Shown here: positions 36,862 through 49,822 of the stretch, piece by piece
Numbering within the stretch: position 1 is the stretch's first letter
Layout of the letters: every line of letters begins with the position of its first letter
Source: an uncultured Victivallales bacterium
GTDB lineage: Bacteria > Verrucomicrobiota > Kiritimatiellia > UBA8416
NCBI GenBank assembly: GCA_964598575.1
Contig: CAZRCN010000001.1
Location: forward strand, 1 to 62,540
DNA: 62,540 nucleotides
Direction of reading: 5' to 3'
Translations under genes and position numbers: made by a program
Notes under the pieces: model-generated
The model's database searches: none
Told to the model about the DNA's origin: nothing
The model's input: only the letters and a program-made list of their open reading frames with translations

Positions 36862-37599
36862 CTACTTCCGATCCGAGATTGTGCCCGTATCAATGTTCAA
36901 CTCGGACTTCAACTTGATATCGGTGATCTTTCCATCCACGAGATACACCACCCGGTCCGACGCTGCCAGCATTTTGTGGTCATGCGTCGCACTGATAATG
37001 GTCTTGCCCGCTTCGCGTTTGAAGCGGTCAAGCATCATGATAATCTCTTCCCCCGTCTTCAAGTCCAGATTGCCCGTGGGCTCGTCCGCCAGGATAATGT
37101 CCGGATCGTTGGCCATCGCACGCGCGATCGCTACCCGTTGCTGCTGTCCACCCGACAACTGCTCGGGGCGGTGATCATACCGTGCCCCCAGACCCACCAT
37201 ATCCAGCAACATACGCGCCCGTTTTGAGGCAACATCATCCTCTTCCCCCGCAAACGTCATCGGCAACATTACATTCTGCTCTGCCGTCATCACCTGGATC
37301 AGATTAAACGTCTGGAAAATAAATCCGACCTTGTGACAGCGAAGATACGCGATCTGGCGCGAATCCATCTGGCGCACATCGAATCCATCCATCAGGACCG
37401 CGCCTTCCGTTGGACGATCCAGCCCGCCAATCATGTTAAACAACGTACTTTTGCCAGAACCCGAGGGCCCCATGATGCTAAGATACTCCCCTCGCTTGAT
37501 GTCCAAGTCAACGCCGGCCAGGGCCCAGACCTCCTCTTCCCCCATCATATAGCGCCGCTTCACGCCCTTGGCTGATACAATCGTGTTGCTATCGGACAT
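36862..37599 (-). CDS. ABC transporter ATP-binding protein (MacB/LolD/FtsE-type), ATPase 2 of the operon
   Basis: ATG at 37599 follows GGAGGG and overlaps the upstream gene by 11 nt. GPSGSGKST, FQTFNL, LSGGQQQRVAIARA, ILADEPTGNLD, ATHD. Confidence 0.9.
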   Translation of the reverse strand: MSDSNTIVSAKGVKRRYMMGEEEVWALAGVDLDIKRGEYLSIMGPSGSGKSTLFNMIGGLDRPTEGAVLMDGFDVRQMDSRQIAYLRCHKVGFIFQTFNLIQVMTAEQNVMLPMTFAGEEDDVASKRARMLLDMVGLGARYDHRPEQLSGGQQQRVAIARAMANDPDIILADEPTGNLDLKTGEEIIMMLDRFKREAGKTIISATHDHKMLAASDRVVYLVDGKITDIKLKSELNIDTGTISDRK

Positions 37600-38395
37600 T
37601 GGTTTGTCCCTCCTGAATGTCAAGCTCATCGCGAGCCACATATCGCTCTATCATTCCATCTGTCAACCAGGCGATCCGGTCAGACACCGACAACATCTTG
37701 TAATCATGCGTGGCGCTGATCACCGTCACCCCTTCGTTTTTATTGATCTCCCGCAGCAGATCAATGATCTGACGCCCCGTGTGGCTGTCCAGATTCCCGG
37801 TCGGTTCATCCGCCAGGACAATGGCCGGATTATTCGCAAGTGCACGCGCTACCGCCACCCGCTGCTGCTGGCCCCCGGACATTTGCACCGGCTTATGCAG
37901 AATGCGTTCACCCAGCCCCACCTTCTTGAGCAGTGCCACAGCCCGGTCCTGCGCCTCGGTCTGGGCCACATCGGCAAACAGCATCGGCAACATCACGTTG
38001 TCCAGGGCTGTCGCCACCGGAATCAGATTGAACGTCTGGAAGATGTATCCGATCTTGTGGCAACGCAACCAAGCTAGCTCGAAGGTATTCAGCGCCGCTA
38101 TATCCACCTCATCAATAAAGACCTTGCCCGCATTCGGTTTATCCAGACCTCCAATGGCATTAAACAAGGTGCTTTTCCCGGAACCCGAAGGCCCCATGAT
38201 GGCCACATACTCGCCGCGTTGCACCTTGAAGTTTACCCCCTTCAGGGCATGCACGGTTTCATCGCCCATCTTGAAGGTACGCCGCACCCCCAATGCCCGC
38301 ACAATATTCGTGGCCATGAAGGACGCATTCTCATTCCCTTCGCGGGGAATGGCCACTTCCGCCCCGCCCGTCTGCTCTACTTCTTTTTCACTCAC
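37589..38395 (-). CDS. ABC transporter ATP-binding protein (MacB/LolD/FtsE-type), ATPase 1 of the operon
   Basis: GTG start 6 nt after GGGAGG. GPSGSGKST, FQTFNL, MSGGQQQRVAVARA, VLADEPTGNLD, ATHD. ~25-aa N-terminal extension. Confidence 0.9.
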   Translation of the reverse strand: MSEKEVEQTGGAEVAIPREGNENASFMATNIVRALGVRRTFKMGDETVHALKGVNFKVQRGEYVAIMGPSGSGKSTLFNAIGGLDKPNAGKVFIDEVDIAALNTFELAWLRCHKIGYIFQTFNLIPVATALDNVMLPMLFADVAQTEAQDRAVALLKKVGLGERILHKPVQMSGGQQQRVAVARALANNPAIVLADEPTGNLDSHTGRQIIDLLREINKNEGVTVISATHDYKMLSVSDRIAWLTDGMIERYVARDELDIQEGQTNVR

Positions 38396-38407
38396 CGGTG
38401 CCTCCCA

Positions 38408-39061
38408 TTACACTTCTGTCCGCATCGCATCCACAGGCTCCATCTTGGCCGCACGCCATGCCGGATATAATGCACCGCACACACTCAAAAACACGCCGGC
38501 CAGAAACGAGATGACCATGATCCTTAGCAGCGACAGCAGCGGGATCAAGGTCCAGACCTCCTGCCCGAAACGGCCCCACCCTTCCAGATAGGCCAGAAAT
38601 ACGCCCAGCAGCAAACCCAGAACCGTGCCCACCAAGCCCTGGAAGAGACTCTCCAGCAGATACAGCTTCACAATAAAGGAATCGAGCCCACCCAGGCATT
38701 TCATCGTCCCGATTTCACGGAAACGTTCGGTCACGCTGATCAACATCGCATTGACAATCCCCACAAAGCTGATCAGCATTGCAATGGCCAGCATCCAGGT
38801 CGTCTGCGCCTGCTGCTCCGGACTCAGCATCTGCTCCAAAAGCCCCTCCCGCGCCAACTCCTGCAGCAGCGACTCCGATACCCGATCCCCAATGTGCGAA
38901 ACCATCTCGTTCGAGCAACTGATATACGTCAGAAACGTCAGCGCCAGCGCAATACAGCAGGTCACCAGAAAGGTCTTTAACAACCGCACCCGCAGCCCGC
39001 GCCACGCCACTTGCAGCACCTTGCGGTAGGGTAATACAACAATTTTTTGCATTTCAGCCAT
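38408..39061 (-). CDS. Minimal FtsX-type ABC permease (4 TM, ~60-aa ectodomain)
   Basis: TM1 TFLVTCCIALALTFLTYI, then a short loop, then the FtsX block MLISVTERFREIGTMKCLGGLDSFIVKLYLLESLFQGLVG and two more TMs. Confidence 0.8.
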   Translation of the reverse strand: MAEMQKIVVLPYRKVLQVAWRGLRVRLLKTFLVTCCIALALTFLTYISCSNEMVSHIGDRVSESLLQELAREGLLEQMLSPEQQAQTTWMLAIAMLISFVGIVNAMLISVTERFREIGTMKCLGGLDSFIVKLYLLESLFQGLVGTVLGLLLGVFLAYLEGWGRFGQEVWTLIPLLSLLRIMVISFLAGVFLSVCGALYPAWRAAKMEPVDAMRTEV

Positions 39062-39066
39062 AACAA

Positions 39067-39438
39067 TTACTTCTCCATATCCATCACCACTAACCCTTTA
39101 GTCATCAGCGTTTGCATAAATTTTGTGACGGCTATCTCTGCCTCCGGAACACTCAGATGCTGATCGCGGGCAAAACGCTTGATCATCGCCTGCACCGTTC
39201 GTTTCCCATTACAACCTTCATACACATACCGCCCATAGGCATCCAGCCCAAATGTCCGTTCCGCCGTTTCAGCGGCCCCCAGCCAACGCTGCCAGCGCGG
39301 ACGCAAAAACCGGATCGTCACTAACAGTTTCTCTTGCTTTTCCTCCGTCCGCACCGGTGGAACCGGAAAGGGCCGTCCACGTAACGCCGCCCGGCGTGCC
39401 GCCGGGCTTGCCACATGCCTTTTTTTCCTACCAGCCAT
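39067..39438 (-). CDS. PqqD-family (peptide-binding, RRE-like) protein with a basic N-terminal tail
   Basis: AAGGAG RBS. LDAYGRYVYEGCNGKRTVQAMIKRFARDQHLSVPEAEIAVTKFMQTLMTKGLVVM fits the PqqD pattern (l.n..g..iw.l.dG.rTv.ei...l...y.v..e....dv..Fl..L...gLi). N-terminus MAGRKKRHVASPAARRAALRGRP. Confidence 0.6.
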   Translation of the reverse strand: MAGRKKRHVASPAARRAALRGRPFPVPPVRTEEKQEKLLVTIRFLRPRWQRWLGAAETAERTFGLDAYGRYVYEGCNGKRTVQAMIKRFARDQHLSVPEAEIAVTKFMQTLMTKGLVVMDMEK

Positions 39439-39474
39439 CCTGCTCCTTTGCTCCCTATCCCGCCACCTACGCGC

Positions 39475-40461
39475 TTACATCTGCGGGGCAGCCGGGAATC
39501 GATTCATTCCATCAATCAACGTGCAACACATGCTCTCCTGCGCCTGCCCACGGGCGGCATGTTCGGCAATCAACAAACGGTTCCGTTGCTGGTCGTGCAC
39601 CCCCAGTGCCGCCGTACTGCGGGGCGCATACCATCCCAACGGTGCCGGAATCCGTTTCCAACCGCGTCGTACCATACCGGACAAATCGGGCTTGCCAGGA
39701 TGACGCCACGTCCGTGCCTGCATCGAGCGCGGACGCAACCGGCGATGCTCCTTAAAGGGTGCCACATTCAACCATTTTTCCCACGAACGCCGCTTCAAAG
39801 CCAGATCCCCCGGATAGACCTGTCGGACCAGCAAGGTCTCCTGCCTCCCTTTGGCAAACAGCAATGCCACATCGCCAGCAAACAGGTGGCGTTGCATCAG
39901 CTCGAATCCGGCTGGAACCGTAAATTGCACCTCGTACATCGACCATAGTCGCTGCGTGTCCAAAGGGGTCGCCCGCAGCGTCGGCAAGATCGATGTAACC
40001 ACGATCCGCCGGATCTCTTTGTCCAAAACCCCGTTCAGGGTAATGCCGAGCAGCAGATCTGCCTTCTCGGAATAGCCATACCAGTAGGTCGTCTCCTTGC
40101 CTTCTTCCGTCTGTAGATCACGCGCCCATCCCACCGCGGTAAAATGCTCGGCGGCCGGTGGGTTCGGCTGCGGATGCGCTCCGTGCTGCCCTAACCGGGA
40201 ACGAACCCACTCGCACCCATCCGTGATCCGCGCGTTCTGCGGACGCGCCCATTTTACGCTGAAAATCGCAACATCGTGGTTACCCACAATCATCTGGCCC
40301 TTGTCGGTCGTCCCCAGCAATTTCAACGGTTGCCAGCTTTCCGGCATCCAAAACTGCCACCCCGCCCAGGCCAGTAAAGAAAAGGCATTCTCTCCCGCCT
40401 CGGAAACAGCCGGCTGTCCGGTCTGCTGCACCTCTTCCGGGTATGGTTCCTGTCCTATCAT
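39475..40461 (-). CDS. Soluble hypothetical protein (328 aa), possibly an internal tandem duplication
   Basis: No TM and no signal peptide. The two halves share a W..F..P..(W/F)....L..G.......(V)..W/Y.(R)P pattern (WQFWMPESWQPLKLLG...SVKWARP versus WSMYEVQFTVPAGFELMQ...VRQVYP). Confidence 0.5.
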   Translation of the reverse strand: MIGQEPYPEEVQQTGQPAVSEAGENAFSLLAWAGWQFWMPESWQPLKLLGTTDKGQMIVGNHDVAIFSVKWARPQNARITDGCEWVRSRLGQHGAHPQPNPPAAEHFTAVGWARDLQTEEGKETTYWYGYSEKADLLLGITLNGVLDKEIRRIVVTSILPTLRATPLDTQRLWSMYEVQFTVPAGFELMQRHLFAGDVALLFAKGRQETLLVRQVYPGDLALKRRSWEKWLNVAPFKEHRRLRPRSMQARTWRHPGKPDLSGMVRRGWKRIPAPLGWYAPRSTAALGVHDQQRNRLLIAEHAARGQAQESMCCTLIDGMNRFPAAPQM

Positions 40462-40574: not shown

Positions 40575-42572
40575 TTATAGCGGCAACACCACATTTACGC
40601 TCTTCATCATAAAGACGACCCCCAGCGCCAGCATCGAGATAAGCCCTACGCCAGCCCCGAAACCTGCGGCAAACACAATACGATACTGGGGCCATCGATC
40701 ACCAAACCATTTGCGGCACCCGTAGCGGCCCAGCAAAGCCCCGATAATCGTGGGGATAATGGAATGCGGCAAGGACTGGTCGAGCCCACGCACCACACCA
40801 TAGACCAGGAACACCGGCAAATTGAAGTGGGCCAGAACCGCATAGAGGCACAATGCCCCCCCGAGACCGGCCCCGATATAATCAAGCCGGAATGCTTCCT
40901 GGAACGGACTCACACCTGCATCCGGCAAGGTCGACGTAGCTATCAGGCCCTGCTGATAGGCCTGCAGCTCCCAGAATTCATTTGCATACGGAAACATCTC
41001 GCTCGGAACCGGTCCCATCGACCAGATAAACTGCGCAAACAAGAGCGTACTGATAATCATCAGGGGGTAGGTAATCGCTTCCGCCTTGATCAACGCCGTG
41101 AATTTGGTGCCCGTTAATTCCATCGTCCGGAATTCGAGCACCTGCTGCGCATGATTATGCAGGGGAATCGGCGCGTACCAGATGGCCGCACCTTTATACC
41201 CGGACAACATGAAGGTTGCTTCCCGGACAAATGGGATCTGGAGCTGCATCCCGACCAAGCCCTCCATGCGTGCCGACATGTAACTCACAAAGGGCGTCCA
41301 CACAAATCCATAGAACATCAGCAACCACAACGGGAACGGATCCCCCGCAAGCGGCCCCGACTTGTGATTGATCAGGTAGTAGGCAATCGAGATATACGAG
41401 ATCGTCGATACAATATAAATGATCACGCCCAGCCAGATCGGGATATCCCCGCGCTCGGGGTTACGGTGCAGCAACCGCTTCCACTCCACCTTGGTCGCCC
41501 CCACATCATCCGCTTCCTCCTTGCGCTTCTTCAGCTTCGAGTACATATGCAGGAACCCGATAACGGCCACCGCAAACATCAACCCCAACCCGAAACTGAA
41601 ATAAAAGTCAAAGTGATTGGCACGCACTACCTCCATGGCATTAAGGCCGGGTTCCCAGCTCGTAAGAACGCCATAGTGATACAGGATCGGGTTGGCAATC
41701 ATCGTGAATAGCACCCCGAAGAGACTACCCATGATCGCCATGAAGGGCATCACCATACCCGTGACCATGAGGCCCAGATCAAAGGACATCATAATCGGCA
41801 TCGCCGGCAACACCCCCTCCGTATAGTGCGTTAAATCGGCAAAAGGTATAGGGATAATTCGCATCGGTCGCCCGAAGGCAGCCGCCGTGATACTCGGTAA
41901 ACCAATGTAGATGGCACCAAAGAAAATGCCGAGCGCACCGCCCATCGAGAAAACCTTGGTGCGCCAGGTTTCGCGCTCGTTCGAGGAATCCGCCAGTGCC
42001 GTCATACCGGCGGCACCCACTGGCGCCAGCGGGAACGGCAATTCCTCGACATCGGCGGTCAACCGGTACATGATGTATCCCAACCCGAAGTTGTCTACCC
42101 GCGTCAGGAACATCATCAAGGCCCCAATACCAACGGGCCACATCCACTCCCACATGAAGAAACTACGCTCGGCCAGCACCGCCGGATCCGTTGGCACATA
42201 CCACGACGGGAGGAACTCCGTCAGTCCCATCTTGCGAATTTCCTCGCTTTGCGCAAAAAACTGGCGCCAGAGCCAGCCCCGCCCCCCCGCAGCCATGGCC
42301 GCGCCGCTCATGTAGAACAGGATGAAAATCTGTGGCCGCTTGAGCTTCACCAGCGCCCGCCGCGCAATTTCAACGTATAGCAGTACGGTAACCCATTTGG
42401 CTGCACCACCCATATGCAGCCCTGCAACCAGATTCATGTACACATTCGCCGGTGCCATGATCAGGCCCACAAACAGCCCCATCAGTACTGTGCCCCAACT
42501 GATCCCCTCCTCAAACGTATCGGGAGCCGTCATCAGGTTTCGAAATTCCTGGAATTCTTTGTCTTCGCGCAT
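40575..42572 (-). CDS. Polytopic membrane protein (665 aa, ~14-16 TM), distantly OPT-transporter-like by eye
   Basis: N-terminus WGTVLMGLFVGLIMAPANVYMNLVAGLHMGG resembles the OPT-family start (..aaNaYlGLkvGlt..). Hydrophobic spans run throughout. Confidence 0.5.
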   Translation of the reverse strand: MREDKEFQEFRNLMTAPDTFEEGISWGTVLMGLFVGLIMAPANVYMNLVAGLHMGGAAKWVTVLLYVEIARRALVKLKRPQIFILFYMSGAAMAAGGRGWLWRQFFAQSEEIRKMGLTEFLPSWYVPTDPAVLAERSFFMWEWMWPVGIGALMMFLTRVDNFGLGYIMYRLTADVEELPFPLAPVGAAGMTALADSSNERETWRTKVFSMGGALGIFFGAIYIGLPSITAAAFGRPMRIIPIPFADLTHYTEGVLPAMPIMMSFDLGLMVTGMVMPFMAIMGSLFGVLFTMIANPILYHYGVLTSWEPGLNAMEVVRANHFDFYFSFGLGLMFAVAVIGFLHMYSKLKKRKEEADDVGATKVEWKRLLHRNPERGDIPIWLGVIIYIVSTISYISIAYYLINHKSGPLAGDPFPLWLLMFYGFVWTPFVSYMSARMEGLVGMQLQIPFVREATFMLSGYKGAAIWYAPIPLHNHAQQVLEFRTMELTGTKFTALIKAEAITYPLMIISTLLFAQFIWSMGPVPSEMFPYANEFWELQAYQQGLIATSTLPDAGVSPFQEAFRLDYIGAGLGGALCLYAVLAHFNLPVFLVYGVVRGLDQSLPHSIIPTIIGALLGRYGCRKWFGDRWPQYRIVFAAGFGAGVGLISMLALGVVFMMKSVNVVLPL

Positions 42573-42632: not shown

Positions 42633-45600
42633 CTACGCAGGTGGCCTGTCCTCGGTAACATGTTTTTCCAGCGTTTCCGCCTCCTCTAGATATGCGAGGA
42701 TTCGATCAGCACTCAGCTTCCGCCAGCCCAGCAATTGACGCCGCACATCGCTGAAAAAGGGCTTATTCAACCGCCACCAGACCTTTTCAGCACCCGCCTC
42801 ATGCACAATTTCGGCCGATATCGAGCAGGTTTCGTCCTCCGGTAGATTCACCAGAATCCGTAACTTTTGCCGCACGCCCATATCGTAGGGTTCGAGCCAG
42901 AGTCGTGCCTCCAACGCCGCAACCGATCCCTTCGTTCCCGGCGGGAGGACCTGGATCTGATCCACATCGAATCCGCCCAGAACCCCATCCCGGTGTGCAT
43001 CCAGATACTCACACAGGAATGCAATCAGTCCAGGCGCTGCCTGCTCATTCACCGTGAAGGGCAGCATATCGCGGATCACCCCGTCTTCCGGCGTCGGCAC
43101 CTTCCAGTCCATCTCCGTCGATGGTGCCGCAATGCGTCCCGCCACAACGGCTGGCACGATGGCCGACAATACCACAACCCCCTGCACCAGCAGCATCGTT
43201 TTGATGACAGCCGTACCAGAGTAGTTCAGCGTAATGCCTGTCATGAAATCAAAATGGGAAAGTACGGTAGCGGTTGCTTGCCCCGCGATATAGCCGAATA
43301 CCGCCCCCATCAGGCCATAAGTAAGTGCTTCCGCCACAAAGAGAACCCCGACATGCGTGGGCGCCAGGCCCAGACTGGTGTAGACATAGATTTCCTTCTT
43401 CCGCTCACTGACCGAGTTCAGCATTGTCGTAAAGATAATCAAGGCGGCAATCACGAGCGGGATAGCAAGATTCTTCGGTGGAATCGCCACCAGGGGCGTT
43501 GCGACCACCACGCTAACCCCGCCGTCCTTGTTGGTGTAATACGCCGGGTACACGATCGTCTTCATCAACTCGTTCGCAACGGCGACGGCTTGGTCGGTAT
43601 CCGCGCAGGCGATGCCGATGCTGCGTAGGGTCCCACCAAATTCCCGCGTTACTGCAGTCGGCAGAATGATCAACGAGCGGGCCGGCGTGAAGATTTCGGA
43701 CTCATCGCCGGTGGGCTGCATCGCTGCTGCCGAGGAGGTTTCCTGCTCGATTACATCCTGCGAATCCCGGTTGATCCAGTCCTGCGCCTGCTGCGTATAA
43801 TCATACGGTGTGATACGCTGACCATCGAGAAGGCGAATATCATCTTCGAGCACCAATGGGTCAAACACACCGCGTACAACGAACGCTACCCCCCGCAGAA
43901 CAATCGTATCGCCCGCTTGCACCTCCATCGCTTCCGCAACGACATCCGGCAGATAACAGCCCCCGTCCGCAGCAAACTGCTCCCAGTTCGGCAATACACG
44001 ATCGATCCCGCTTAACGCATCTTCCACGGGCGGAACCCCCAACGCGCCCTGCACCGGAAGCTGTTCACCCGTTTGCGGATTCAATAGATGCAACCGATAG
44101 GTGATCTCCCCCAGACCCCCTCCCAGCCAGGCGCGTTCCCCCACTTTCACATCATAATGTCCCAGTAGGTTGTGCACGGCTGCCGCCGCATGCCAGTTCA
44201 ATTCCCCGAAAGTCGGACGCCGGATCAGTACCGACGCGTTGGGTGCTGTCACCCCCTCCAGCTTGAAATCCTTCTTGTCGATATAACTGCTCGCCGAGGA
44301 AAAACACAACAGCGCAAACGTCACGAGCACAATGGTCGAGCCAGTCAGGAACGTGCGGACCTTGCGCTTACGCATGTTCGCAATCCCTAGAAACACTGCA
44401 CTGCCCAGGACGCCACCGCGCCCCATGTTCGCCCCGCTACCCTCCGCCAGCGAACTCTGGAACTCCTGCACGGACGCCTTGAAGCGCTTGAGTACCATAC
44501 TGATCACCACCAGACTCATCGCCAGGATGGCAAAGGACATCACGATCACCAGCGGCTGCGCACTGATCCGGAAAGCCGGATGGAAACTCCACAGCAACGC
44601 CGTCATCCCCGCGAAGATCGCCAAGGCACCAATGATCTGCCGCCCGACATGGGCCGCCGCAAACAGCAATCGCTCCATCGCAATCGAGAACGGCACCAGC
44701 ATCAGCATCAGGAATATGGCGCCCCGCGAAATGTCCATGCCCATCTCCTTGACGGCCTGATACGCCCGGATCTCGTTCGCCAGCGCCTTGGATGCGGCCC
44801 GCTTCAACCCGGCCCCGTCATCAGCCTCCCGATAGCCGTCTGCTACCTCCAACTCGGTGCGGGTCGCCTTCCGGATTTCATCAATCTTGCCACTTTCGAT
44901 TCCCGCTGATCGGTAGTCCGTCAACCGCCATTCATTCAGCGTGTACAAATCGCGTGCCGCAATATATTCCGGAATCGTCTCCAGGGTCTCCTCCACCGCA
45001 AAACCTCGCTGGAAGGTACCACGCAGATCAAGACCGAGCTCGCGACCGTTCTCCAAGGCATTGAGCAACGCCATCCGGATACGTGTAGCGCCTGCGCGCA
45101 GAATGATCTGCCAGCGAATATCAGGTTCGACCAGCCCCCACATCTGGCCATGCTCATCCATACTGAAGGTGGCTTGCTTCGGACTGCCCCCCCGGAGCGC
45201 ATCCAGCAGGGATGCCTCCTGCAGCGGCTCCAGGAACCGTACATCAAAAAAGGACGGTCCGTTCAGTTCTGTCGAACCGAAGGTAACCACCCGCGGAAGC
45301 TGATCACCGGGTTTATTCCCCAGGTTGAACGTGGTAGTCAGCCGGGTACTGACCATGGATTCGGTCGTGGACAGGGACTCCACCAGATTGCCCCATTCAT
45401 CCACCAGGACTGCCACTAGATCGAACGACTGGACGTAGCGGTTTATCTTCGCCGGCATCAACGGAATACGCAGGGCCCCATCAGCATCGGTCCAGCCAAA
45501 GTTATGCCGGCGAATGCCATCCATGCTTTGAGAGCTCCCACCCCCGACAAAGGTGCAGAGAAACCCCGGGCGCGGTACCCGCGGCACCGTCTCACCCGCC

Positions 45601-47753
45601 GACACGGCCACGACCCGCCCCATCCCGTGCCGCCAATTCGCCGTGGATTCCCCTACCGGGCGCACGTCCGGCTCGTAGTCGTCACTCGTGAACAACCATT
45701 GCAGAAAGGCCAATGATGGGGCCAGTTGCGGTGTGATTCGCGCCCAATCCAGTCGGTCAAATGTATCCAGTGGCGAATCCGGACGCAGGCGATCTGCATC
45801 ATCCGTCAACCACGTAATGCCCTGCAATCCGAAACTGAATACACTCGACGTCACCAAGGGGCGAGCCCCAATCCATCCCCCGCCGCTCGGACGGCCCGAA
45901 AGAGCCGGCAGGTTCACGGAACGGCGCATGTCGGACCCCTCCGGCCATATATCGCCCCGGCGAACCGCAAAGCGTAGCGCACGCTCCAGGCGTCGGTCGG
46001 TTCCTGGGATTCGGTTCATCGGGCACTCGAGTCCCGGCCCGACCATCAAACCACAGTCTGACAGATCCAACCCCACCACCAGCGCGGTGGCCGAGGTAAG
46101 CTCTGGATCCCCTTCCACCCCGAAATACGTCACGATCTGGCGTCGAATTGCATCCATAGGGGTAAAGAAGTTCAATCGATCCAGTTGCTCCGCATGCTGC
46201 TGCTCAATGCGATCCGCCATGCGGTTCCAGAGCATACGGGCAACCGGCACATCCTGCTCCTGCAGGGAACTCCCGTCCCGATAGACGGTTTCCAATACCC
46301 GATTCCGGATGCGAATCGGGTCGGTATAGATAGCCAGCATCTGCGCCGCATACTGCTTGCCCACCTCAAAGGCATCCCAGGCATCCGCCAGTACGTCTCC
46401 CGTCGGTTGCGCTACTTCCTCCTCTACCATCCGCAGCCGCTGCTCCTCCACAAACGCGGCCGCAGCCTCCAGCGTCACATGGTCTTCCTCTGTAAGCTCC
46501 TGGGCATGATGCTCCAGCAACCACGTGCGCCCTTCTTCCAGAATCCCGAGGATCTCCTCCCGCGTCACGAGGGTATTCTCTTCCGCCCGGCGCTGGGATG
46601 CCAATCGCAATTCGCCCTGGAGCTGTTTGAGGCGCAGGACCTCCGGCCCTACCGCATCCTTGTAGAGACGGCGAATGTGTTTGGCGCGGCTCCGGTCATG
46701 CATGATGGCCAGCCCCGCATCGGCACTTTCAAATGACTGGAACTCTTCTAATGCCGCCTGATACGCCTCCAGACGCTCTTGCTCAATCTCCGTATATGCT
46801 TTGCGGGTTCGGCCATCTGGTGTTACCGATAGCATGGCGGCCATGTAACGCATGCCCAGATGGTTCAGGTGATACGCATCCAGAAAACCGAACAGCAGGG
46901 AACGGGAGGGATCGGCCGCCTCATCCCGCAGGAGGTTCAGTACCGTAGCGGCATCCAGTGCAATATCAGCACCCGGCGCCACCCCGTAGACCTTGCTCAT
47001 CGAATCATATGGTGCCACCACCGCATACGGTTTGTCCCCTTGGGCACCCGAGCCCTTCACGCCTACATAGATGTTGCGCGCTTGCTTCTCCTGCCAACTG
47101 CCGCGACAGAGTATCCGCCCCTCCTTCAATGCGCCGGACCGTAGCGCATCCGCCAACGGCCCCTCCGGCACGTAGTACCGCGGCTTGTAGAGCGATTGCT
47201 TCCCGCTCATGAGGCTCCTGCCCGGTTCGTCCGATTCCAGCAGAATCACGGCAACCGCACCAAAATCAAATGCCCGGCGGTAGTTGCCATAGGCAGAAAG
47301 CTCCATCACGGCGATATTCCCGCGCAAGGACTGGGCCGGCATGTCGGCTAACTCGGCCTCCCCGATATACCGGAACCGACCACTAATCCCGTACCGGGGC
47401 GTTGTATTCAGACGGGCCACATCCGGCCAAATCGGATGGATCGTATGCTGCCCGGCCATCTCGCCACTGTCCAGTTCCAGATAGGTTTCTTCATACACCG
47501 GCACCACAACCGGGAACTCGTGCACCCAGACTTCCGTGCCGGGGATGGCCTTGACCTTCTCCAGCAGGGCATCCTGTACCGCACGGTGCTCCTCGGTGCC
47601 CACTTGCCGCGTCGCAAAGGAGGATAGCCATGCCGTATCTGCCTGTACACGCGCCGCAAACGAGTTTGTCTCGTCAGCCCTGGCAATCCCGGCTGAACCC
47701 AGCCCCAGCAGGATCACCGCCATCATTATGCTCGCTGTATGCCTGTCTCTCAT
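42633..47753 (-). CDS. Giant (1706 aa) envelope protein: signal/anchor + degenerate M28-like ectodomain with coiled-coil insert + two FtsX/MacB-type permease modules + cytoplasmic tail
   Basis: The start is set at ATG 47753; the ORF-track start 48194 overlaps the upstream gene by 388 nt, and 47726 is an alternative. Motifs: YAVVAPYDS, LLFGFLDAYHLNHLG, LRPDSPLDTFDRLD (M28-like), ANMRKRKVRTFLTGSTIVLVTFALLCF (MacB TM1), LNSVSERKKEIYVYTSLGLAP (FtsX block). Confidence 0.7.
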   Translation of the reverse strand: MRDRHTASIMMAVILLGLGSAGIARADETNSFAARVQADTAWLSSFATRQVGTEEHRAVQDALLEKVKAIPGTEVWVHEFPVVVPVYEETYLELDSGEMAGQHTIHPIWPDVARLNTTPRYGISGRFRYIGEAELADMPAQSLRGNIAVMELSAYGNYRRAFDFGAVAVILLESDEPGRSLMSGKQSLYKPRYYVPEGPLADALRSGALKEGRILCRGSWQEKQARNIYVGVKGSGAQGDKPYAVVAPYDSMSKVYGVAPGADIALDAATVLNLLRDEAADPSRSLLFGFLDAYHLNHLGMRYMAAMLSVTPDGRTRKAYTEIEQERLEAYQAALEEFQSFESADAGLAIMHDRSRAKHIRRLYKDAVGPEVLRLKQLQGELRLASQRRAEENTLVTREEILGILEEGRTWLLEHHAQELTEEDHVTLEAAAAFVEEQRLRMVEEEVAQPTGDVLADAWDAFEVGKQYAAQMLAIYTDPIRIRNRVLETVYRDGSSLQEQDVPVARMLWNRMADRIEQQHAEQLDRLNFFTPMDAIRRQIVTYFGVEGDPELTSATALVVGLDLSDCGLMVGPGLECPMNRIPGTDRRLERALRFAVRRGDIWPEGSDMRRSVNLPALSGRPSGGGWIGARPLVTSSVFSFGLQGITWLTDDADRLRPDSPLDTFDRLDWARITPQLAPSLAFLQWLFTSDDYEPDVRPVGESTANWRHGMGRVVAVSAGETVPRVPRPGFLCTFVGGGSSQSMDGIRRHNFGWTDADGALRIPLMPAKINRYVQSFDLVAVLVDEWGNLVESLSTTESMVSTRLTTTFNLGNKPGDQLPRVVTFGSTELNGPSFFDVRFLEPLQEASLLDALRGGSPKQATFSMDEHGQMWGLVEPDIRWQIILRAGATRIRMALLNALENGRELGLDLRGTFQRGFAVEETLETIPEYIAARDLYTLNEWRLTDYRSAGIESGKIDEIRKATRTELEVADGYREADDGAGLKRAASKALANEIRAYQAVKEMGMDISRGAIFLMLMLVPFSIAMERLLFAAAHVGRQIIGALAIFAGMTALLWSFHPAFRISAQPLVIVMSFAILAMSLVVISMVLKRFKASVQEFQSSLAEGSGANMGRGGVLGSAVFLGIANMRKRKVRTFLTGSTIVLVTFALLCFSSASSYIDKKDFKLEGVTAPNASVLIRRPTFGELNWHAAAAVHNLLGHYDVKVGERAWLGGGLGEITYRLHLLNPQTGEQLPVQGALGVPPVEDALSGIDRVLPNWEQFAADGGCYLPDVVAEAMEVQAGDTIVLRGVAFVVRGVFDPLVLEDDIRLLDGQRITPYDYTQQAQDWINRDSQDVIEQETSSAAAMQPTGDESEIFTPARSLIILPTAVTREFGGTLRSIGIACADTDQAVAVANELMKTIVYPAYYTNKDGGVSVVVATPLVAIPPKNLAIPLVIAALIIFTTMLNSVSERKKEIYVYTSLGLAPTHVGVLFVAEALTYGLMGAVFGYIAGQATATVLSHFDFMTGITLNYSGTAVIKTMLLVQGVVVLSAIVPAVVAGRIAAPSTEMDWKVPTPEDGVIRDMLPFTVNEQAAPGLIAFLCEYLDAHRDGVLGGFDVDQIQVLPPGTKGSVAALEARLWLEPYDMGVRQKLRILVNLPEDETCSISAEIVHEAGAEKVWWRLNKPFFSDVRRQLLGWRKLSADRILAYLEEAETLEKHVTEDRPPA

Positions 47754-47806
47754 CGTACGCCGCCTGCAAATGGTTTGTCTCGCACTCTTCTCTCCAATTT
47801 CGTCCG

Positions 47807-49822
47807 TTAGGGATACTGCATCAGGATGTAGCGTGGCACCGTCTCCGGGTCGGCCCCCGTCAGGAGCACGATGCCTACCGGCACCAACGTCCATGTAATG
47901 ATGGCCAGCAACTCCCCGATGATGAGCCCCAGAAACAGCGGTCGCGCCTTGCGGTATACGCCGCCCCCGAACAAGCGCGTAATAAAGGTCTTGAGTAGCC
48001 ACCCCAGGAATACGCTGAACCAAAGGAGACTGCCAATGGAGATGCGCGCCAGGATGATGCCGACCGGATGAATGGGCCAGGCCGGGAACCGCGAGCACAA
48101 CCACAGCAACCCGGACCCCATCCCAACGCCAATCACCTGATGCATCCGCCCCGAATCCCAGAATTGGAAGTTCGTTCGATCTACACGCATCCACTCATTC
48201 ATGGCCGTGGAGCTCATCTTTGCATTTGTGCTGACCGCAAAATTCTCATAATGCATAAAGATATGTACGGCCCCGCAGATCACAAATCCCATCAACAGGA
48301 CAACCAATCCCCCGAGCAACAAGCGCCGCTGATGCTTGGGCCCCGCTTCACGGTCGGCCCCCAATGCCAGCGTCGTCATGACGGAGACGCTCACAGCCGT
48401 TGCACGGGTGATCAAGGCATAAAAGACATTCGTAAAGAGCAGGATGGTGGGAGACAGCCACGTGAGCGGGAAAAAGCCCGTTATATGTGCAATAGACAAC
48501 CGTCCCACCCATAAGCTGGGCAAACCGGTTTCCGCAATAATGCGCGCCATCAAGAGGGCAACCATGGCGCAACCGAGCATGGCCACCACACTCCACCAGA
48601 GCGGACACCCGGCCCAGTGCAACCAGAAGACAATGCCTGCACACCCCAGCACAAACATCCAGCCCGCAAACGAGTTGCGCCGGGCCTCGGCATCCGAGCC
48701 CGCTTTGCCAAACATCGCCTTGCCCACCTTGCACCAATGGGCACGCCCCAGAAACAAGACCCAGCCCACAATGGCCAGCAGCACCCCGAAGGATTGGTCA
48801 CCCACCTGGCCTTCCTTAAACGCGGGAATATACGCTTTTCCCAACGTCAGGTACCACGAATAGCCAAAGACCCAGCCCCAGATCGAAATGGCATAACGGC
48901 TCGGGATAAAGTAGGCCACCCCTACCACCGAAAAGAAGATGACCTGCCAATTAAAGGCCTGCGGGGCATACCGCAGGATATTATCCGTATAATACTGCCG
49001 CATCTCCCAGCGCAGCGGAATCGACGGAAACGCCCCCGTAAACTCATGCAAGCCACGTAACAGGTGGATCCCGAACACGACCCCGCACCCAATCCAGAAG
49101 GCACGGCTATAGAAAATGCCCGGCAGGAGCCGCTTGTGTTCCGCATCGGTTTCATCCCCGATAAAGGCATGATATACATGTAGCAAGGGGAACGGCAGCC
49201 GCTCATTATGCCGCCACTGGGGATACACGACCCCGCCCAACCCGATCATCATTGCCCAGAGGGCTAGCAGCAACATCCCCCAGGAGGCCATCGGCACCAG
49301 CCAATCTCCCCACGGGATCCCTTCCCCCTCATATAACTCCTCCAAAAACTGGTCAGAAACCGGCGTTTGATACCGGACGACGTTACCTTCCTCATCCAGC
49401 GTTGGCACCGGATCCGGGAATAACGACTGCCGCAAATCCGTCTCTGCCGCAATCTGCGAGGTCGTCAGGTTGCTGTTCATGTCCCGGCTCATCTGGGCAA
49501 CCATGCGCGGGAACATCCGCATCAACCCATTACTCGGAATAATCGCCGCAAACAACATCATCCCGGTTATCAGCGCAATTTGATGCCGATTGAGCATCCA
49601 GCGGCGGTTCCGCAACCCCAGCAGCGGATTCACCAGCAGGACCAGCAACATCAGGAAACCAACCACCACTTCAGGCAGGTAGTTGTCTGCCAGATACGTG
49701 TTTTTCAGGACAAAGTTGTTGTACGGAACCAGAACCCATGCCAGTACAGAACCAACCAGCCCCAGCAAGGCTGCAATCACAGCCCGCTTGGTAGATAACA
49801 CTTCTCGCATAATGCTCCTCAT
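47807..49822 (-). CDS. Polytopic membrane protein (671 aa, ~14 TM), function unknown; first gene of the operon
   Basis: ATG at 49822. An alternative ATG at 49810 lies 4 nt after GAGGAG. Hydrophobic spans throughout (VIAALLGLVGSVLAWVLVPY..., WMFVLGCAGIVFWLHWAGCPLWWSVVAMLGCAMVALLMARI...). Confidence 0.55.
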   Translation of the reverse strand: MRSIMREVLSTKRAVIAALLGLVGSVLAWVLVPYNNFVLKNTYLADNYLPEVVVGFLMLLVLLVNPLLGLRNRRWMLNRHQIALITGMMLFAAIIPSNGLMRMFPRMVAQMSRDMNSNLTTSQIAAETDLRQSLFPDPVPTLDEEGNVVRYQTPVSDQFLEELYEGEGIPWGDWLVPMASWGMLLLALWAMMIGLGGVVYPQWRHNERLPFPLLHVYHAFIGDETDAEHKRLLPGIFYSRAFWIGCGVVFGIHLLRGLHEFTGAFPSIPLRWEMRQYYTDNILRYAPQAFNWQVIFFSVVGVAYFIPSRYAISIWGWVFGYSWYLTLGKAYIPAFKEGQVGDQSFGVLLAIVGWVLFLGRAHWCKVGKAMFGKAGSDAEARRNSFAGWMFVLGCAGIVFWLHWAGCPLWWSVVAMLGCAMVALLMARIIAETGLPSLWVGRLSIAHITGFFPLTWLSPTILLFTNVFYALITRATAVSVSVMTTLALGADREAGPKHQRRLLLGGLVVLLMGFVICGAVHIFMHYENFAVSTNAKMSSTAMNEWMRVDRTNFQFWDSGRMHQVIGVGMGSGLLWLCSRFPAWPIHPVGIILARISIGSLLWFSVFLGWLLKTFITRLFGGGVYRKARPLFLGLIIGELLAIITWTLVPVGIVLLTGADPETVPRYILMQYP

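What the first reader, a model, noticed from the sequence alone, without database searches (positions are those of the whole stretch)
36862..49822. Eight-gene, ~13-kb operon built from MacB/FtsX-type ABC parts plus unusual partners, matching no system I can name
These are same-strand genes with gaps of 5-113 nt, or overlap (37589-37599).

Gene order:
- 671-aa polytopic protein (47807..49822)
- 1706-aa ectodomain-plus-double-permease protein (42633..47753)
- 665-aa polytopic protein (40575..42572)
- 328-aa soluble protein (39475..40461)
- 123-aa PqqD-like protein (39067..39438)
- 217-aa minimal FtsX permease (38408..39061)
- two different ABC ATPases (37589..38395 and 36862..37599)

Both ATPases have intact Walker A (GPSGSGKST), signature (SGGQQQR), Walker B (ADEPTGNLD) and H-loop (ATHD) motifs. 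A terminator at 50001..50043 closes the upstream gene, so the unit starts at ~49.8 kb. An M24 aminopeptidase gene follows 70 nt downstream.

The characterised type VII ABC systems I know are LolCDE, FtsEX, MacAB-TolC, BceAB, HrtAB and DevCA. None fits. There is no membrane-fusion or outer-membrane partner, no two-component system and no twin LolC/E-like permeases. Three FtsX-type modules for two ATPases implies either two separate pumps or an asymmetric assembly.

Several parts point to peptides: a PqqD-type peptide-binding fold, an M28-like ectodomain, an OPT-like polytopic protein and the adjacent M24 peptidase. That suggests an envelope peptide- or protein-handling machine, but this last step is inference.
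Basis: partly seen in the sequence, partly recalled or inferred. Interest (0 to 1): 0.85.

Follow-up and report, generated by a model that had tools for sequence, protein, structure and literature searches.

The report
Uncharacterised ABC-powered envelope machine of PVC bacteria
This is a real, widely conserved gene cluster that joins an ATP-driven MacB/Lol-type membrane motor, carrying a huge dead-peptidase domain outside the cell membrane, to peptide-transporter-like membrane proteins and two cytoplasmic adaptor proteins; no database or paper searched here assigns it a function.

Summary
The eight minus-strand genes are at the stated coordinates, with the stated gaps, ATPase motifs and upstream terminator. 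The set is not chance. The core of giant permease G, OPT-like O, soluble S, PqqD-like P, small FtsX x and an ATPase recurs in about 40 of 48 complete loci. These span Kiritimatiellota, Verrucomicrobiota, Lentisphaerota, Phycisphaerae and Sumerlaeota. The core survives three different gene orders and natural S-P fusions.

- Only two FtsX modules are detectable, G's C-terminal module and x. They fit a LolC/LolE-like heterodimer served by the two paralogous ATPases.
- The M28/PA ectodomain lacks the canonical zinc ligands, so it is probably a binding module of the nicastrin or transferrin-receptor kind.

S is a tandem PsbP/Eag-chaperone-like fold. O is as conserved as the ATPases. The DUF6785/6784 protein D is variable and sometimes multi-copy. 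The M24 gene is linked only in the closest clade.

No Pfam, NCBIfam, PDB or literature search places the set in a characterised system. PADLOC only matches G's membrane part to a computational "CARF_m8 LolE_TM" profile.

Best reading: a type VII ABC mechanotransducer coupled to OPT-superfamily permeases that handles envelope peptides or proteins. Substrate and direction are inferred.

The parts
50011..50044 (-). Intrinsic terminator of the upstream aldo/keto-reductase gene. It marks the 5' boundary of the unit.
   Evidence: GC-rich hairpin plus U-run, -29.4 kcal/mol, z = -3.1. The upstream gene is Aldo_ket_red.
49823..50010 (-). Non-coding leader and presumed promoter region of the operon.
   Evidence: About 190 nt with no ORF lie between the terminator and the first gene. 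No Rfam family matches. The sigma-70 pattern scan is at chance level.
47807..49822 (-). D: 671-aa polytopic DUF6785 + DUF6784 protein, weakly related to O. It is the variable, sometimes multi-copy component.
   Evidence: Pfam DUF6785 scores 231.5 bits and DUF6784 71.8 bits. My hydropathy scan finds at least 11 hydrophobic segments. hhalign against the O family gives E = 2e-4 and probability 46% over the N-terminal 220 aa, including the E-x-LPFP motif. D is the fastest-evolving part. L021 has four full-length tandem paralogues plus an upstream fragment.
42633..47753 (-). G: 1706-aa giant permease, made of a signal peptide, an ectodomain, a 3-TM cluster, an FtsX module and a cytoplasmic C-terminal domain.
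   Evidence: Pfam FtsX matches residues 1433-1538. A PDB profile matches MacB, LolC and YtrF. There are 54 full-length homologue clusters, 214 species genomes and 1094 clusters at 50% identity with E < 1e-30 for the C-terminal 707 aa.
44733..47678 (-). G ectodomain (residues 26-1007). It holds a PA + M28-like core split by a long helical-hairpin insertion, then beta-rich domain(s) and a helical stalk leading into the membrane.
   Evidence: AF2 model with pLDDT 91.4 and pTM 0.90. Foldseek matches PA-M28 aminopeptidases (3e-13), transferrin receptor and GCPII. The sequence profile matches 2ek8 at 5e-12 and nicastrin at 4e-5. The canonical ligands are lost: AHxDS becomes APYDS and EE becomes DA.
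44484..44732 (-). G extra 3-TM cluster (residues 1008-1090) with the family's most conserved motif, PF..AMERL.
   Evidence: Hydropathy scan. There is no FtsX similarity by hhalign. The cluster matches positions 74-207 of PADLOC profile PDLC01991. Its motif served as the scan pattern.
43134..44435 (-). G type VII ABC permease module (residues about 1107-1540): a basic coupling segment, TM1, a periplasmic domain of about 260 aa, and TM2-4.
   Evidence: Pfam FtsX. MacB (2e-9), YtrF (3e-10) and LolC/LolF matches. It is 38% identical to x over TM2-3.
42636..43133 (-). G cytoplasmic C-terminal domain (residues 1541-1706), an orphan conserved domain.
   Evidence: It is conserved across the whole superfamily, with matches running to the C-terminus and invariant P, F, D, G, W and R positions. 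It has no Pfam, PDB or PADLOC match.
40575..42572 (-). O: 665-aa polytopic OPT-superfamily protein, the most conserved membrane component. It has a nearly invariant N-terminal tail of about 25 aa, presumed cytoplasmic.
   Evidence: 14 of 32 orthologues hit Pfam OPT, best E = 6e-12. Identity to orthologues is 83/71/53% across three clades, like the ATPases. The N-terminal invariants are listed. O lies next to G, D, S or P in nearly all of the 80 metagenome loci; the few loci where it is alone are short contigs.
39475..40461 (-). S: 328-aa soluble protein without a signal peptide, made of two tandem PsbP/Mog1/Eag-chaperone-like alpha/beta domains.
   Evidence: AF2 pLDDT 92.9. Foldseek matches PsbP (2e-4), SciW Eag chaperone, Tsi3 and Mog1. 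No Pfam or NCBIfam hit. Natural fusions to P exist.
39067..39438 (-). P: 123-aa PqqD/RRE-like protein with a basic N-terminal tail.
   Evidence: Pfam PqqD 30.0 bits against a cut-off of 23.4, residues 61-117. It falls below the NCBIfam equivalog cut-offs. It always lies next to S and is fused to S in P0122 and L037.
38408..39061 (-). x: 217-aa minimal FtsX permease with 4 TM segments and an extracytoplasmic loop of about 45 aa. It is the presumed heterodimer partner of G's FtsX module.
   Evidence: Pfam FtsX 71.4 bits. Four TM segments. Phycisphaerae use longer versions of 330-460 aa.
37589..38395 (-). A: MacB/LolD/FtsE-type ABC ATPase with all motifs intact.
   Evidence: ABC_tran 119 bits. 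The best NCBIfam hits are LolD and the MacB NBD, all below equivalog cut-offs. Motifs are visible.
36862..37599 (-). B: second ABC ATPase, 56% identical to A. It is present only in the clades with a small x.
35415..36791 (-). M24 (AMP_N + Peptidase_M24) Xaa-Pro-aminopeptidase-like gene. It is a clade-specific neighbour, not part of the conserved core.
   Evidence: Called gene of 458 aa, 70 nt downstream. It is adjacent in most complete loci of the 55-67% identity clade (not L018) and unlinked in nearly all more distant loci.

Best explanation
The locus encodes one multi-subunit inner-membrane machine built around a heteromeric type VII (MacB/LolCDE/FtsEX-class) ABC mechanotransducer.

Shown:
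- G's C-terminal 4-TM FtsX module and the minimal FtsX protein x are the only two FtsX modules.
- A and B are two intact paralogous MacB/LolD-type ATPases.
- G carries a 1000-aa ectodomain with a PA+M28 fold that lacks the canonical zinc ligands. It also carries an extra conserved 3-TM cluster and an orphan cytoplasmic C-terminal domain.
- O is an OPT-superfamily polytopic protein as conserved as the ATPases.
- D is a distantly related, fast-evolving, sometimes multi-copy polytopic protein.
- S (tandem PsbP/Eag-like) and P (PqqD/RRE-like) lack signal peptides and occur as natural fusions.
- The G-O-S-P-x-ATPase core is inherited together across phyla and rearrangements.

Inferred:
- G and x form a LolC/LolE-like heterodimer driven by an A/B heterodimer. 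In the lineages that have a single ATPase gene, an A homodimer would serve.
- As in other type VII systems, ATP hydrolysis in the cytoplasm does mechanical work outside the membrane. Here the work falls on G's own stalked pseudo-peptidase ectodomain.
- That ectodomain acts as a gated receptor for a peptide-bearing envelope ligand. The ligand could be a free oligopeptide, a polypeptide terminus, or a peptide on an envelope polymer.
- The ligand is handed to the OPT-type permease O, with D as an exchangeable specificity partner, for passage across the inner membrane.
- The S-P pair is a cytoplasmic adaptor that binds a short peptide segment. That segment could be cargo or a tail of a subunit, for example O's invariant N-terminal tail or G's C-terminal domain.

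The architecture is well supported. The substrate and direction of transport are not.
For: Architecture.
- FtsX and ABC_tran assignments, with MacB, LolC and YtrF structures as nearest solved relatives.
- No FtsX signal in the first TM cluster.
- x and G's FtsX module are related but distinct.
- A and B are 56% identical with all motifs.
- Lineages with one ATPase keep G and x.

Functional linkage.
- The same families recur in order D-G-O-S-P-x-A-B.
- They recur in order G-O-x-A-B-D with P and S on the other strand.
- They recur in order x-A-G-D-O-(Y)-S-P.
- In an O-centred metagenome scan, nearly every one of the 80 loci has O beside G, D, S or P; the exceptions are short contigs.
- No recurrent outside partner appears.
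- S-P fusions exist.

Ectodomain as a binding module.
- High-confidence model.
- Fold matches aminopeptidases but equally the non-catalytic transferrin receptor, and by sequence profile nicastrin.
- Ligand residues are missing family-wide.

Peptide or protein cargo.
- OPT hits in O orthologues.
- P passes the PqqD cut-off.
- S resembles Eag/PsbP-type binding scaffolds.
- Paralogous giants add a parvulin PPIase, TPR, or LysM plus NMB0315 domain I to the ectodomain.
- Rce1-like CPBP proteases lie next to two stand-alone D homologues.
- An M24 peptidase neighbour occurs in the closest clade.

Central role of O. Its conservation of 83/71/53% equals that of the ATPases.
Against: - No subunit contact was modelled or measured.
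- OPT transporters are normally proton-driven and need no ABC partner.
- Type VII ABC systems are not known to import anything.
- The window's own O protein has no Pfam OPT hit at E <= 0.1, and O has no solved relative.
- Three of five stand-alone D homologues lie beside GH2, GH28 or sugar-acid dehydratase genes.
- The window itself is embedded in sugar-catabolism genes, so the cargo could be a glycan.
- GT-C glycosyltransferase genes (PMT_2, DUF2079, YfhO) lie in or next to two variants.
- Some loci lack S and P (L047, L039, L172) or lack D (many Phycisphaerae).
- The M24 link is clade-specific.
Confidence: 0.4

Rival explanations
1. An FtsEX-like regulator of cell-wall remodelling. The ABC engine would move a coiled-coil or hairpin plus degenerate-hydrolase ectodomain (as FtsEX moves EnvC or PcsB) to control a peptidoglycan hydrolase. 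The OPT-like proteins would then take up the released stem peptides.
For: - The system has a type VII ABC core.
- Long helical hairpins are inserted in a catalytically degenerate hydrolase fold.
- A distant giant (P0331) carries LysM and the domain I of the NMB0315 LytM protein.
- OPT-type permeases carry oligopeptides (family knowledge).
Against: - No hydrolase partner gene is conserved in or beside the cluster.
- The system is accessory: 214 of about 185,000 species genomes carry it.
- FtsE and FtsX equivalog cut-offs are missed by a wide margin.
- LysM was seen in one of five distant members only.
Confidence: 0.15
2. A glycan or oligosaccharide capture-and-uptake machine of polysaccharide-degrading PVC bacteria. 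The ectodomain would bind a carbohydrate ligand, and D and O would be sugar or oligosaccharide permeases.
For: - Stand-alone D homologues lie in XylR/AraC - D - GH28, GH2 and MR_MLE contexts.
- The window is flanked by heparinase II/III-like, GH31, ALDH, DHDPS-like, AKR, ADH and MR_MLE genes.
- Sulfatases, GH95, GH31, GH29, GH130, RhaA and AraA lie near relatives.
- D paralogues are multiplied in L021, as specificity subunits would be.
Against: - These genomes are rich in carbohydrate-active enzymes anyway.
- In a random sample of 129 flanking ORFs no carbohydrate family recurs more than twice, and housekeeping genes are as frequent.
- The recognisable folds (PA/M28, OPT, PqqD, and the PPIase and TPR of paralogues) point to peptides.
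Confidence: 0.15
3. A Lol-like extractor or exporter. The G/x heterodimer would pull a lipid-anchored or membrane-embedded envelope component (lipoprotein, glycolipid, or polyprenyl-linked intermediate) out of the inner membrane and pass it to the ectodomain or a periplasmic carrier. O and D would act as flippase-like partners.
For: - The arrangement is a LolC/LolE-like heterodimer, and LolC, LolE and LolF are among the nearest solved relatives.
- One clade adds one or two copies of a secreted protein of about 205 aa (Y) inside the cluster, a position that would suit a periplasmic carrier.
- GT-C glycosyltransferase genes (PMT_2, DUF2079, YfhO) lie in or beside two variants.
- YbbAP-TesA shows that type VII systems extract hydrophobic compounds (PMC12646458).
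Against: - Lol equivalog cut-offs are not met.
- Y has no detectable similarity to anything and is clade-restricted.
- This reading gives no role to the cytoplasmic S-P pair.
- The glycosyltransferase neighbours are anecdotal.
Confidence: 0.15
4. Not one machine. An ABC efflux pump (G, x, A, B) and independent secondary transporters (O, D) with unrelated small proteins would be merely co-located or co-regulated.
For: - Each family can in principle work alone.
- D homologues do occur alone.
- A few loci lack S and P, or O.
Against: - The core set stays together through three rearrangements and across at least five phyla.
- O was never found away from the other components where context was visible.
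- O is as constrained as the ATPases.
Confidence: 0.07
5. A CARF-type signalling or defence effector. G's cytoplasmic C-terminal domain would be a cyclic-oligonucleotide sensor that gates a membrane effector.
For: G residues 1001-1591 match the PADLOC profile 'CARF_m8--CARF_LolE_TM' (E = 6e-48).
Against: - The match covers only the membrane part, profile positions 67-602 of 810.
- G's C-terminal domain alone gives no PADLOC, Pfam or PDB hit.
- No CRISPR, CBASS or other defence genes appear in the flanks.
- O is absent from the plasmid and phage collections.
- The label comes from a computational census that I could not read here.
Confidence: 0.03

Closest known systems
LolCDE (lipoprotein-release type VII ABC transporter)
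   Same: Two different FtsX-type permeases with one NBD dimer. LolC, LolE and LolF are among the nearest solved or curated relatives of G's C-terminal module and of x. The ATPases score best to LolD and the MacB NBD.
   Different: - All Lol equivalog cut-offs are missed (LolD 231 against 308 bits; lolCE 50 against 362).
- One 'permease' is a 1706-aa giant with a 1000-aa ectodomain, three extra TM segments and a cytoplasmic domain, while the other is minimal.
- The NBDs are two paralogues.
- There is no LolA or LolB.
- OPT-like, PqqD-like and PsbP-like partners are obligatory.
FtsEX with EnvC / PcsB / CwlO (mechanotransmission to a coiled-coil plus degenerate or regulated hydrolase)
   Same: The logic is the same: an ABC engine coupled to an extracytoplasmic helical hairpin plus a hydrolase-fold domain that is catalytically degenerate. 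A distant member carries LysM and an NMB0315-type domain.
   Different: - The hydrolase-fold domain here is M28/PA, not LytM or CHAP, and it is fused to the permease rather than being a separate protein.
- FtsE and FtsX cut-offs are not met.
- The system is not universal or division-linked.
- It has extra polytopic and cytoplasmic subunits.
MacAB-TolC and YbbAP-TesA (other type VII ABC systems; PMC5985334, PMC12646458)
   Same: FtsX fold with a periplasmic domain between TM1 and TM2. MacB is a top structural-sequence relative. YbbAP-TesA shows that a type VII engine can be paired with a hydrolase-fold partner.
   Different: - There is no membrane-fusion protein or outer-membrane duct in any locus.
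- The NBDs are separate polypeptides.
- The MacB equivalog scores 228 against a cut-off of 966 bits.
- The peptidase-fold domain is fused and lacks catalytic ligands.
Nicastrin, transferrin receptor and GCPII (PA + M28-fold ectodomains on membrane proteins)
   Same: The PA + M28 fold sits on a membrane anchor, and helical elements are also present. As in nicastrin and the transferrin receptor, the catalytic metal site is not conserved, which suggests a receptor or gatekeeper role.
   Different: - The similarity is at fold level only (12-22% identity).
- Here the fold is split by a helical insertion of about 230 aa and is followed by beta-domains and an ABC permease.
- There is no relation to gamma-secretase or to iron uptake.
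OPT oligopeptide transporter family (PF03169) and DUF6785/DUF6784
   Same: O orthologues hit OPT, 14 of 32 with best E = 6e-12. D is a bona fide DUF6785/6784 member. O and D share a weak N-terminal similarity with an E-x-LPFP motif.
   Different: - Characterised OPT proteins are autonomous proton symporters.
- O is found only inside this cluster and is conserved like an enzyme core.
- The window's O itself falls below Pfam detection.
PqqD/RRE peptide-binding domains with partner proteins (PqqD-PqqE, lasso-peptide B1-B2), and Eag/DUF1795 chaperones
   Same: P passes the PqqD Pfam cut-off. It is paired, and sometimes fused, with a partner protein S, as RREs are with their enzymes. S has the PsbP/Mog1/Eag fold used by T6SS chaperones to hold hydrophobic segments.
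   Different: - The cluster has no precursor peptide, radical-SAM enzyme, protease or cyclase.
- S shows no catalytic signature.
- NCBIfam PqqD-type equivalogs are not met.
- The fold match of S is modest (TM-score 0.4-0.5).

Membership tests
Type VII ABC transporter superfamily (MacB/FtsX fold) | FtsX-type 4-TM permease with an extracytoplasmic domain between TM1 and TM2. | tested here: met
   Pfam FtsX scores 45 bits in G (residues 1433-1538) and 71 bits in x. The G profile matches MacB, LolC, LolF and YtrF chains.
Type VII ABC transporter superfamily (MacB/FtsX fold) | Cognate MacB/LolD/FtsE-class nucleotide-binding subunits with intact motifs. | tested here: met
   The best NCBIfam hits for both ATPases are LolD, the MacB NBD, YbbA and FtsE. 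Walker A, signature, Walker B and H-loop are present.
Type VII ABC transporter superfamily (MacB/FtsX fold) | Assembly of two TMDs and two NBDs; mechanotransmission rather than transmembrane transport. | not testable with these tools
The stoichiometry is inferred from gene content.
LolCDE | Equivalog-level similarity to LolC, LolE and LolD. | tested here: not met
   TIGR02211 LolD scores 231 and 220 bits against a cut-off of 307.75. TIGR02212 lolCE scores 49.8 (x) and 17.5 (G) against 362.45.
LolCDE | Works with a periplasmic carrier, LolA. | tested here: inconclusive
   The window cluster has no such gene. One distant clade has a secreted protein Y of about 205 aa with no detectable homology.
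FtsEX | Equivalog-level similarity to FtsE and FtsX. | tested here: not met
   FtsE scores 207.7 and 197.1 bits against 264.85. FtsX models score 30 bits or less against 225-255.
MacAB-TolC | Fused NBD-permease MacB plus a membrane-fusion protein and an outer-membrane duct. | tested here: not met
   NF007826 scores 228 bits against a cut-off of 966 and matches the NBD part only. No MFP or OMF family was found in 53 sets of flanks.
Peptidase family M28 (active aminopeptidase) | M28 (with PA insert) fold. | tested here: met
   Foldseek matches 2ek8 at 3e-13 and BSAP at 1e-12. The sequence profile matches 2ek8 at 5e-12. Pfam M28 hits occur in several family members.
Peptidase family M28 (active aminopeptidase) | Co-catalytic zinc ligands and catalytic Glu (H-x-D, D, E-E, D/E, H). 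| tested here: not met
   The alignment to 2ek8 shows HHDS replaced by PYDS and EE replaced by DA. The first His is absent in all 46 aligned family members and in nearly all of the wider superfamily.
OPT oligopeptide transporter family (PF03169) | Significant match to the OPT profile. | tested here: inconclusive
   The window protein has no hit at E <= 0.1. 14 of 32 orthologues match, best E = 6e-12. Precomputed OPT hits are on record for orthologues.
DUF6785 / DUF6784 (PF20581 / PF20580) | Match above the Pfam gathering score. | tested here: met
   231.5 bits against 25, and 71.8 bits against 26.4. The family has no described function and no paper mentions it.
PqqD / RiPP recognition element | Match to the PqqD domain profile. 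| tested here: met
   30.0 bits against a cut-off of 23.4. The NCBIfam PqqD, ScmD and lasso equivalogs are not met.
RiPP biosynthetic gene cluster | Precursor peptide plus modifying enzyme(s) beside the RRE. | tested here: not met
   No radical-SAM, YcaO, protease or cyclase family occurs among the eight proteins. The intergenic gaps of 113 nt or less leave no room for a precursor gene.
PsbP / Mog1 / DUF1795 (Eag chaperone) fold | Alpha-beta-alpha sandwich fold similarity. | tested here: inconclusive
   Foldseek E = 2e-4 to 1e-2 and target-normalised TM-score 0.4-0.55 to PsbP, SciW, Tsi3 and Mog1, with each hit covering about half of S. There is no sequence-family hit.
CARF_m8 'CARF_LolE_TM' (PADLOC-DB profile PDLC01991) | Match including the putative CARF sensor part, plus a defence-system context. 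| tested here: not met
   Only profile positions 67-602 of 810 (the membrane part) match. The C-terminal domain alone gives no hit. The flanks show no defence context.

The most novel reading that the evidence does not exclude
This is a previously undescribed class of envelope machine. A heterodimeric type VII ABC mechanotransducer, with its own nicastrin/transferrin-receptor-like pseudo-peptidase receptor domain, is obligatorily coupled to OPT-superfamily permeases and to a cytoplasmic RRE-chaperone adaptor. ATP-driven capture outside the membrane would thereby be linked to permease-mediated passage across it. That coupling mode is not known for either ABC type VII systems or OPT transporters.
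Probability: 0.4. Interest if true: 0.85.

Novelty: new variant of a known kind. Interest (0 to 1): 0.7.

Why it matters
Type VII ABC systems (MacAB, LolCDE, FtsEX, YbbAP) are the standard examples of cytoplasmic ATP doing mechanical work in the bacterial envelope, and only a handful of partner types are known. Here a large family pairs that engine with partners never described for it: OPT-like permeases, a fused dead-peptidase receptor, and an RRE plus a PsbP-like adaptor.

It is concentrated in PVC bacteria and Sumerlaeota. These are abundant glycan and protein degraders in sediments, guts and oceans, and their envelope biology and nutrient uptake are poorly understood.

Solving its function would add a new working mode to the ABC field. 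It would assign roles to DUF6785/DUF6784 and three orphan domains. It might also explain a lineage-specific uptake or envelope-maintenance route.

Tried and rejected
- Second FtsX module in G. hhalign of the first TM cluster (residues 995-1100) against the FtsX TM2-4 region gave no similarity, so the 'double permease' description is rejected.
- RiPP cluster. There is no modifying enzyme and no room for a precursor.
- Defence system. The PADLOC hit is confined to the membrane part, the flanks show no defence context, and O is absent from plasmids and phages.
- Recurrent extra partners. Clustering 558 flanking ORFs gave only antisense shadow ORFs as 'conserved'. A Pfam census of 129 flanking ORFs found no family in more than 3 loci.
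- Prepilin-type N_methyl neighbours, seen in L002 and L005. The motif was found in only 1 of 558 flanking ORFs.
- Regulatory RNA or riboswitch. Rfam found nothing.
- Promoter and terminator pattern scans inside the operon were at chance level.
- Solved-structure relatives by sequence for O, D, Y and G's C-terminal domain: none. Pfam found nothing for the C-terminal domain.
- Literature. No paper mentions DUF6785, DUF6784, PF20581, PF20580 or DUF7408, or the domain combination.
- The CARF census paper behind the PADLOC label (PMC7498327) is not held and could not be read.
- Cultured hosts.

Full report
**1. What is in the sequence**

Their starts equal independent public gene calls on a 14.6-kb contig. 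The gaps are 53, 60, 113, 36, 5 and 12 nt, followed by an 11-nt overlap.

The ORF holding the 1706-aa gene extends to a GTG at 48194. That extension overlaps the upstream gene, and the ATG at 47753 is the database start. A strong hairpin plus U-run at about 50011-50044 closes the upstream aldo/keto-reductase gene. No internal terminator or promoter pattern exceeds chance, and no Rfam family matches.

I name the genes D, G, O, S, P, x, A and B in transcription order.

**2. What the parts are**

*D (671 aa).* It matches DUF6785 and DUF6784 far above the Pfam cut-offs.

*G (1706 aa).* It has a signal peptide followed by a 1000-aa ectodomain.
- The AF2 model of residues 26-1010 is confident (pLDDT 91.4, pTM 0.90).
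- The model shows a PA+M28 core split by about 230 residues of helical hairpins, then beta-rich domain(s), then a helical stalk.
- Foldseek and a sequence profile match PA-M28 aminopeptidases. They match equally the non-catalytic transferrin receptor and nicastrin.
- The canonical zinc ligands are missing. AHxDS is APYDS here and EE is DA. The first His is absent in all 46 aligned relatives and in nearly all of the wider superfamily.
- I therefore read the ectodomain as a binding module, not a canonical peptidase.

After the stalk comes a conserved 3-TM cluster with the motif PF..AMERL. It has no FtsX similarity. Next is a basic coupling segment and one complete FtsX module with a periplasmic domain of about 260 aa. 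MacB, LolC, LolF and YtrF are its nearest solved relatives. Last is an orphan cytoplasmic domain of about 165 aa, with no Pfam, PDB or PADLOC match.

*O (665 aa).* It has no Pfam hit itself, but 14 of 32 orthologues hit OPT, best E = 6e-12. O and D share a weak N-terminal similarity.

*S (328 aa).* It has no sequence family, but it models at pLDDT 92.9 as two tandem PsbP/Mog1/Eag-chaperone-like domains.

*P (123 aa).* It passes the PqqD cut-off.

*x (217 aa).* It is a minimal 4-TM FtsX protein, 38% identical to G's module over TM2-3.

*A and B.* They are intact MacB/LolD/FtsE-class ATPases, 56% identical to each other.

**3. Is it one system?**

A scan with G of one genome per species found 214 species with relatives. 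The best 78 loci are all MAGs of Kiritimatiellia, Verrucomicrobiota, Lentisphaerota/Victivallales, Planctomycetota (mainly Phycisphaerae and Tepidisphaerales) and Sumerlaeota, with single Anaerolineales and Desulfobacterales bins.

Using HMMs built from the window proteins, the core G-O-S-P-x-ATPase is present in about 40 of 48 loci with enough flanking DNA.

The same families recur in three different orders:
- D-G-O-S-P-x-A-B;
- G-O-x-A-B-D, with P and S on the opposite strand;
- x-A-G-D-O-(Y)-S-P.

Further points:
In nearly all of the 80 loci inspected O lies with G, D, S or P; the exceptions are short contigs.
- S and P occur as natural fusions.
- No outside family recurs in the flanks.
- The second ATPase is restricted to clades with a small x. 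Phycisphaerae have one ATPase and an x of 330-460 aa.
- D is often missing there. Elsewhere it can be multiplied: L021 has four full-length tandem paralogues plus an upstream fragment.
- The M24 gene is adjacent in most complete loci of the closest clade and unlinked in nearly all others.
- Conservation ranks O with the ATPases (83/71/53% against 85/72/65% in three clades). D and S evolve fastest.
- The C-terminal 707 residues of G have 1094 relatives at E < 1e-30 among 50%-identity representatives. Most are giants of 1450-1800 aa.
- Of five sampled distant members, four keep M28 plus FtsX. Accessory ectodomain modules seen in distant members are LysM with NMB0315 domain I, and Big_5. Other relatives add a parvulin PPIase or TPR repeats.

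**4. How it most likely works**

*Shown.* There are two FtsX modules and two paralogous ATPases. There is a fused pseudo-peptidase ectodomain on a helical stalk. An OPT-superfamily protein is under ATPase-like constraint. There is a variable related permease. A signal-peptide-less RRE plus PsbP-like pair also exists as a fusion. All are inherited together.

*Inferred.*
- G and x form a LolC/LolE-like heterodimer on an A/B heterodimer.
- ATP-driven movements are transmitted to G's own ectodomain, which captures a peptide-bearing ligand.
- O, with D as an exchangeable partner, provides the membrane passage.
- S-P is a cytoplasmic adaptor that binds a short peptide. That peptide may be cargo, or a subunit tail such as O's nearly invariant N-terminal 25 residues.

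*Evidence favouring peptide or protein cargo.* The OPT and PqqD assignments, the PA/M28 fold, the PPIase, TPR and LysM modules in paralogues, the Rce1-like proteases beside two stand-alone D homologues, and the M24 neighbour.

*Evidence against that reading.*
- Three stand-alone D homologues lie with GH2, GH28 or sugar-acid dehydratase genes.
- The window lies in a sugar-catabolism neighbourhood.
- GT-C glycosyltransferase genes occur in or beside two variants.

I put about 0.8 on the architecture and about 0.3 on the peptide-uptake function. The combined confidence is 0.4.

Five rival readings are scored separately:
- FtsEX-like wall regulator.
- Glycan uptake machine.
- Lol-like extractor.
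- Mere co-location of unrelated transporters.
- CARF effector.

**5. Comparison with what is known**

The engine belongs to the type VII ABC superfamily, and the defining sequence features are met. It is not a member of LolCDE, FtsEX or MacAB:
- every equivalog cut-off is missed by a wide margin;
- there is no MFP, OMF or LolA.

The M28 fold is present but the catalytic feature is not. There is no RiPP cluster.

PADLOC's 'CARF_m8--CARF_LolE_TM' profile matches G's membrane part (E = 6e-48) but not its C-terminal domain. The membrane module was therefore catalogued computationally before. I could not read that census, and no defence context exists here. No paper in the library mentions the DUFs or the combination.

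**6. Verdict**

The system is genuinely uncharacterised and conserved, but it has two rather than three FtsX modules. A Lol-like permease pair does exist. The peptidase domain is degenerate. The M24 link is local. The peptide reading is plausible but unproven.

Novelty: a new variant of a known kind, namely a type VII ABC mechanotransducer with unprecedented partners. Interest 0.7.

Noticed in passing
L131-L170 (for example L145:11069-11704, L170:4632-5255, and two copies each in L134 and L140): In the clade whose O is about 45% identical to the window's, the cluster order is x-A-G-D-O-Y-S-P. Y is an extra conserved secreted protein of about 205 aa. There are 23 copies, sometimes in tandem, with no Pfam or PDB relative. 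It could be a periplasmic partner or carrier.
   Followed up: partly
L170:5231-7717; L005:23385-26534: GT-C-type glycosyltransferase genes lie inside or directly after variant clusters. A YfhO-like gene sits between O and S in L170, and PMT_2 plus DUF2079 follow the cluster in L005. PMT_2 genes also lie near two stand-alone DUF6785 genes (L088, L089).
   Followed up: no
L021:1-9820: Four full-length diverged DUF6785/6784 paralogues (52-68% identical to each other), plus a fifth fragment cut by the contig end, lie directly upstream of the giant permease gene in a Kiritimatiellae MAG.
   Followed up: partly
L086, L087, L088, L089, L090: Stand-alone distant DUF6785/6784 genes lie next to GH2, GH28 or MR_MLE sugar-acid genes and a XylR/AraC regulator (3 loci), or next to an Rce1-like CPBP intramembrane protease (2 loci). 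This hints that the DUF family is itself a nutrient permease.
   Followed up: partly
window 42633-44756 (G residues 1001-1591): PADLOC-DB holds profiles named 'CARF_m8--CARF_LolE_TM' and 'CARF_Beta-galactosidase_LolE_TM' (the latter 1791 positions). Both match G's membrane module. This implies a sister family of giant permeases with a different, beta-galactosidase-like ectodomain.
   Followed up: partly
window 51430-53565 (+) against 51274-52380 (-): A 711-aa plus-strand ORF has an M42 peptidase/cellulase-like domain only in residues 411-694. Its 5' part overlaps a minus-strand zinc-ADH gene, so the real M42 gene probably starts near 52.6 kb.
   Followed up: no
window 27076-35343 and 50059-54819: The cluster is embedded in sugar and sugar-acid catabolism genes. 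Downstream are heparinase II/III-like, GH31, aldehyde dehydrogenase and DHDPS-family aldolase-like genes. Upstream are aldo/keto reductase, Zn-ADH and MR_MLE dehydratase-like genes. A 512-aa ORF at 31820-33358 has no Pfam hit.
   Followed up: partly
window 14955-17354 (-) and 56040-57047 (-): There are two APH-type phosphotransferase-domain proteins. One is fused to a nucleotidyltransferase domain (799 aa), an architecture typical of sugar-1-kinase/nucleotidyltransferase salvage enzymes.
   Followed up: no
P0331, P0364, P0052, P0053 (distant giant permeases): Ectodomain accessory modules vary. P0331 has LysM plus NMB0315 domain I, P0364 (3053 aa) has Big_5, P0052 has a parvulin PPIase, and P0053 (2177 aa) has TPR repeats. 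The M28-like and FtsX parts are kept throughout.
   Followed up: partly
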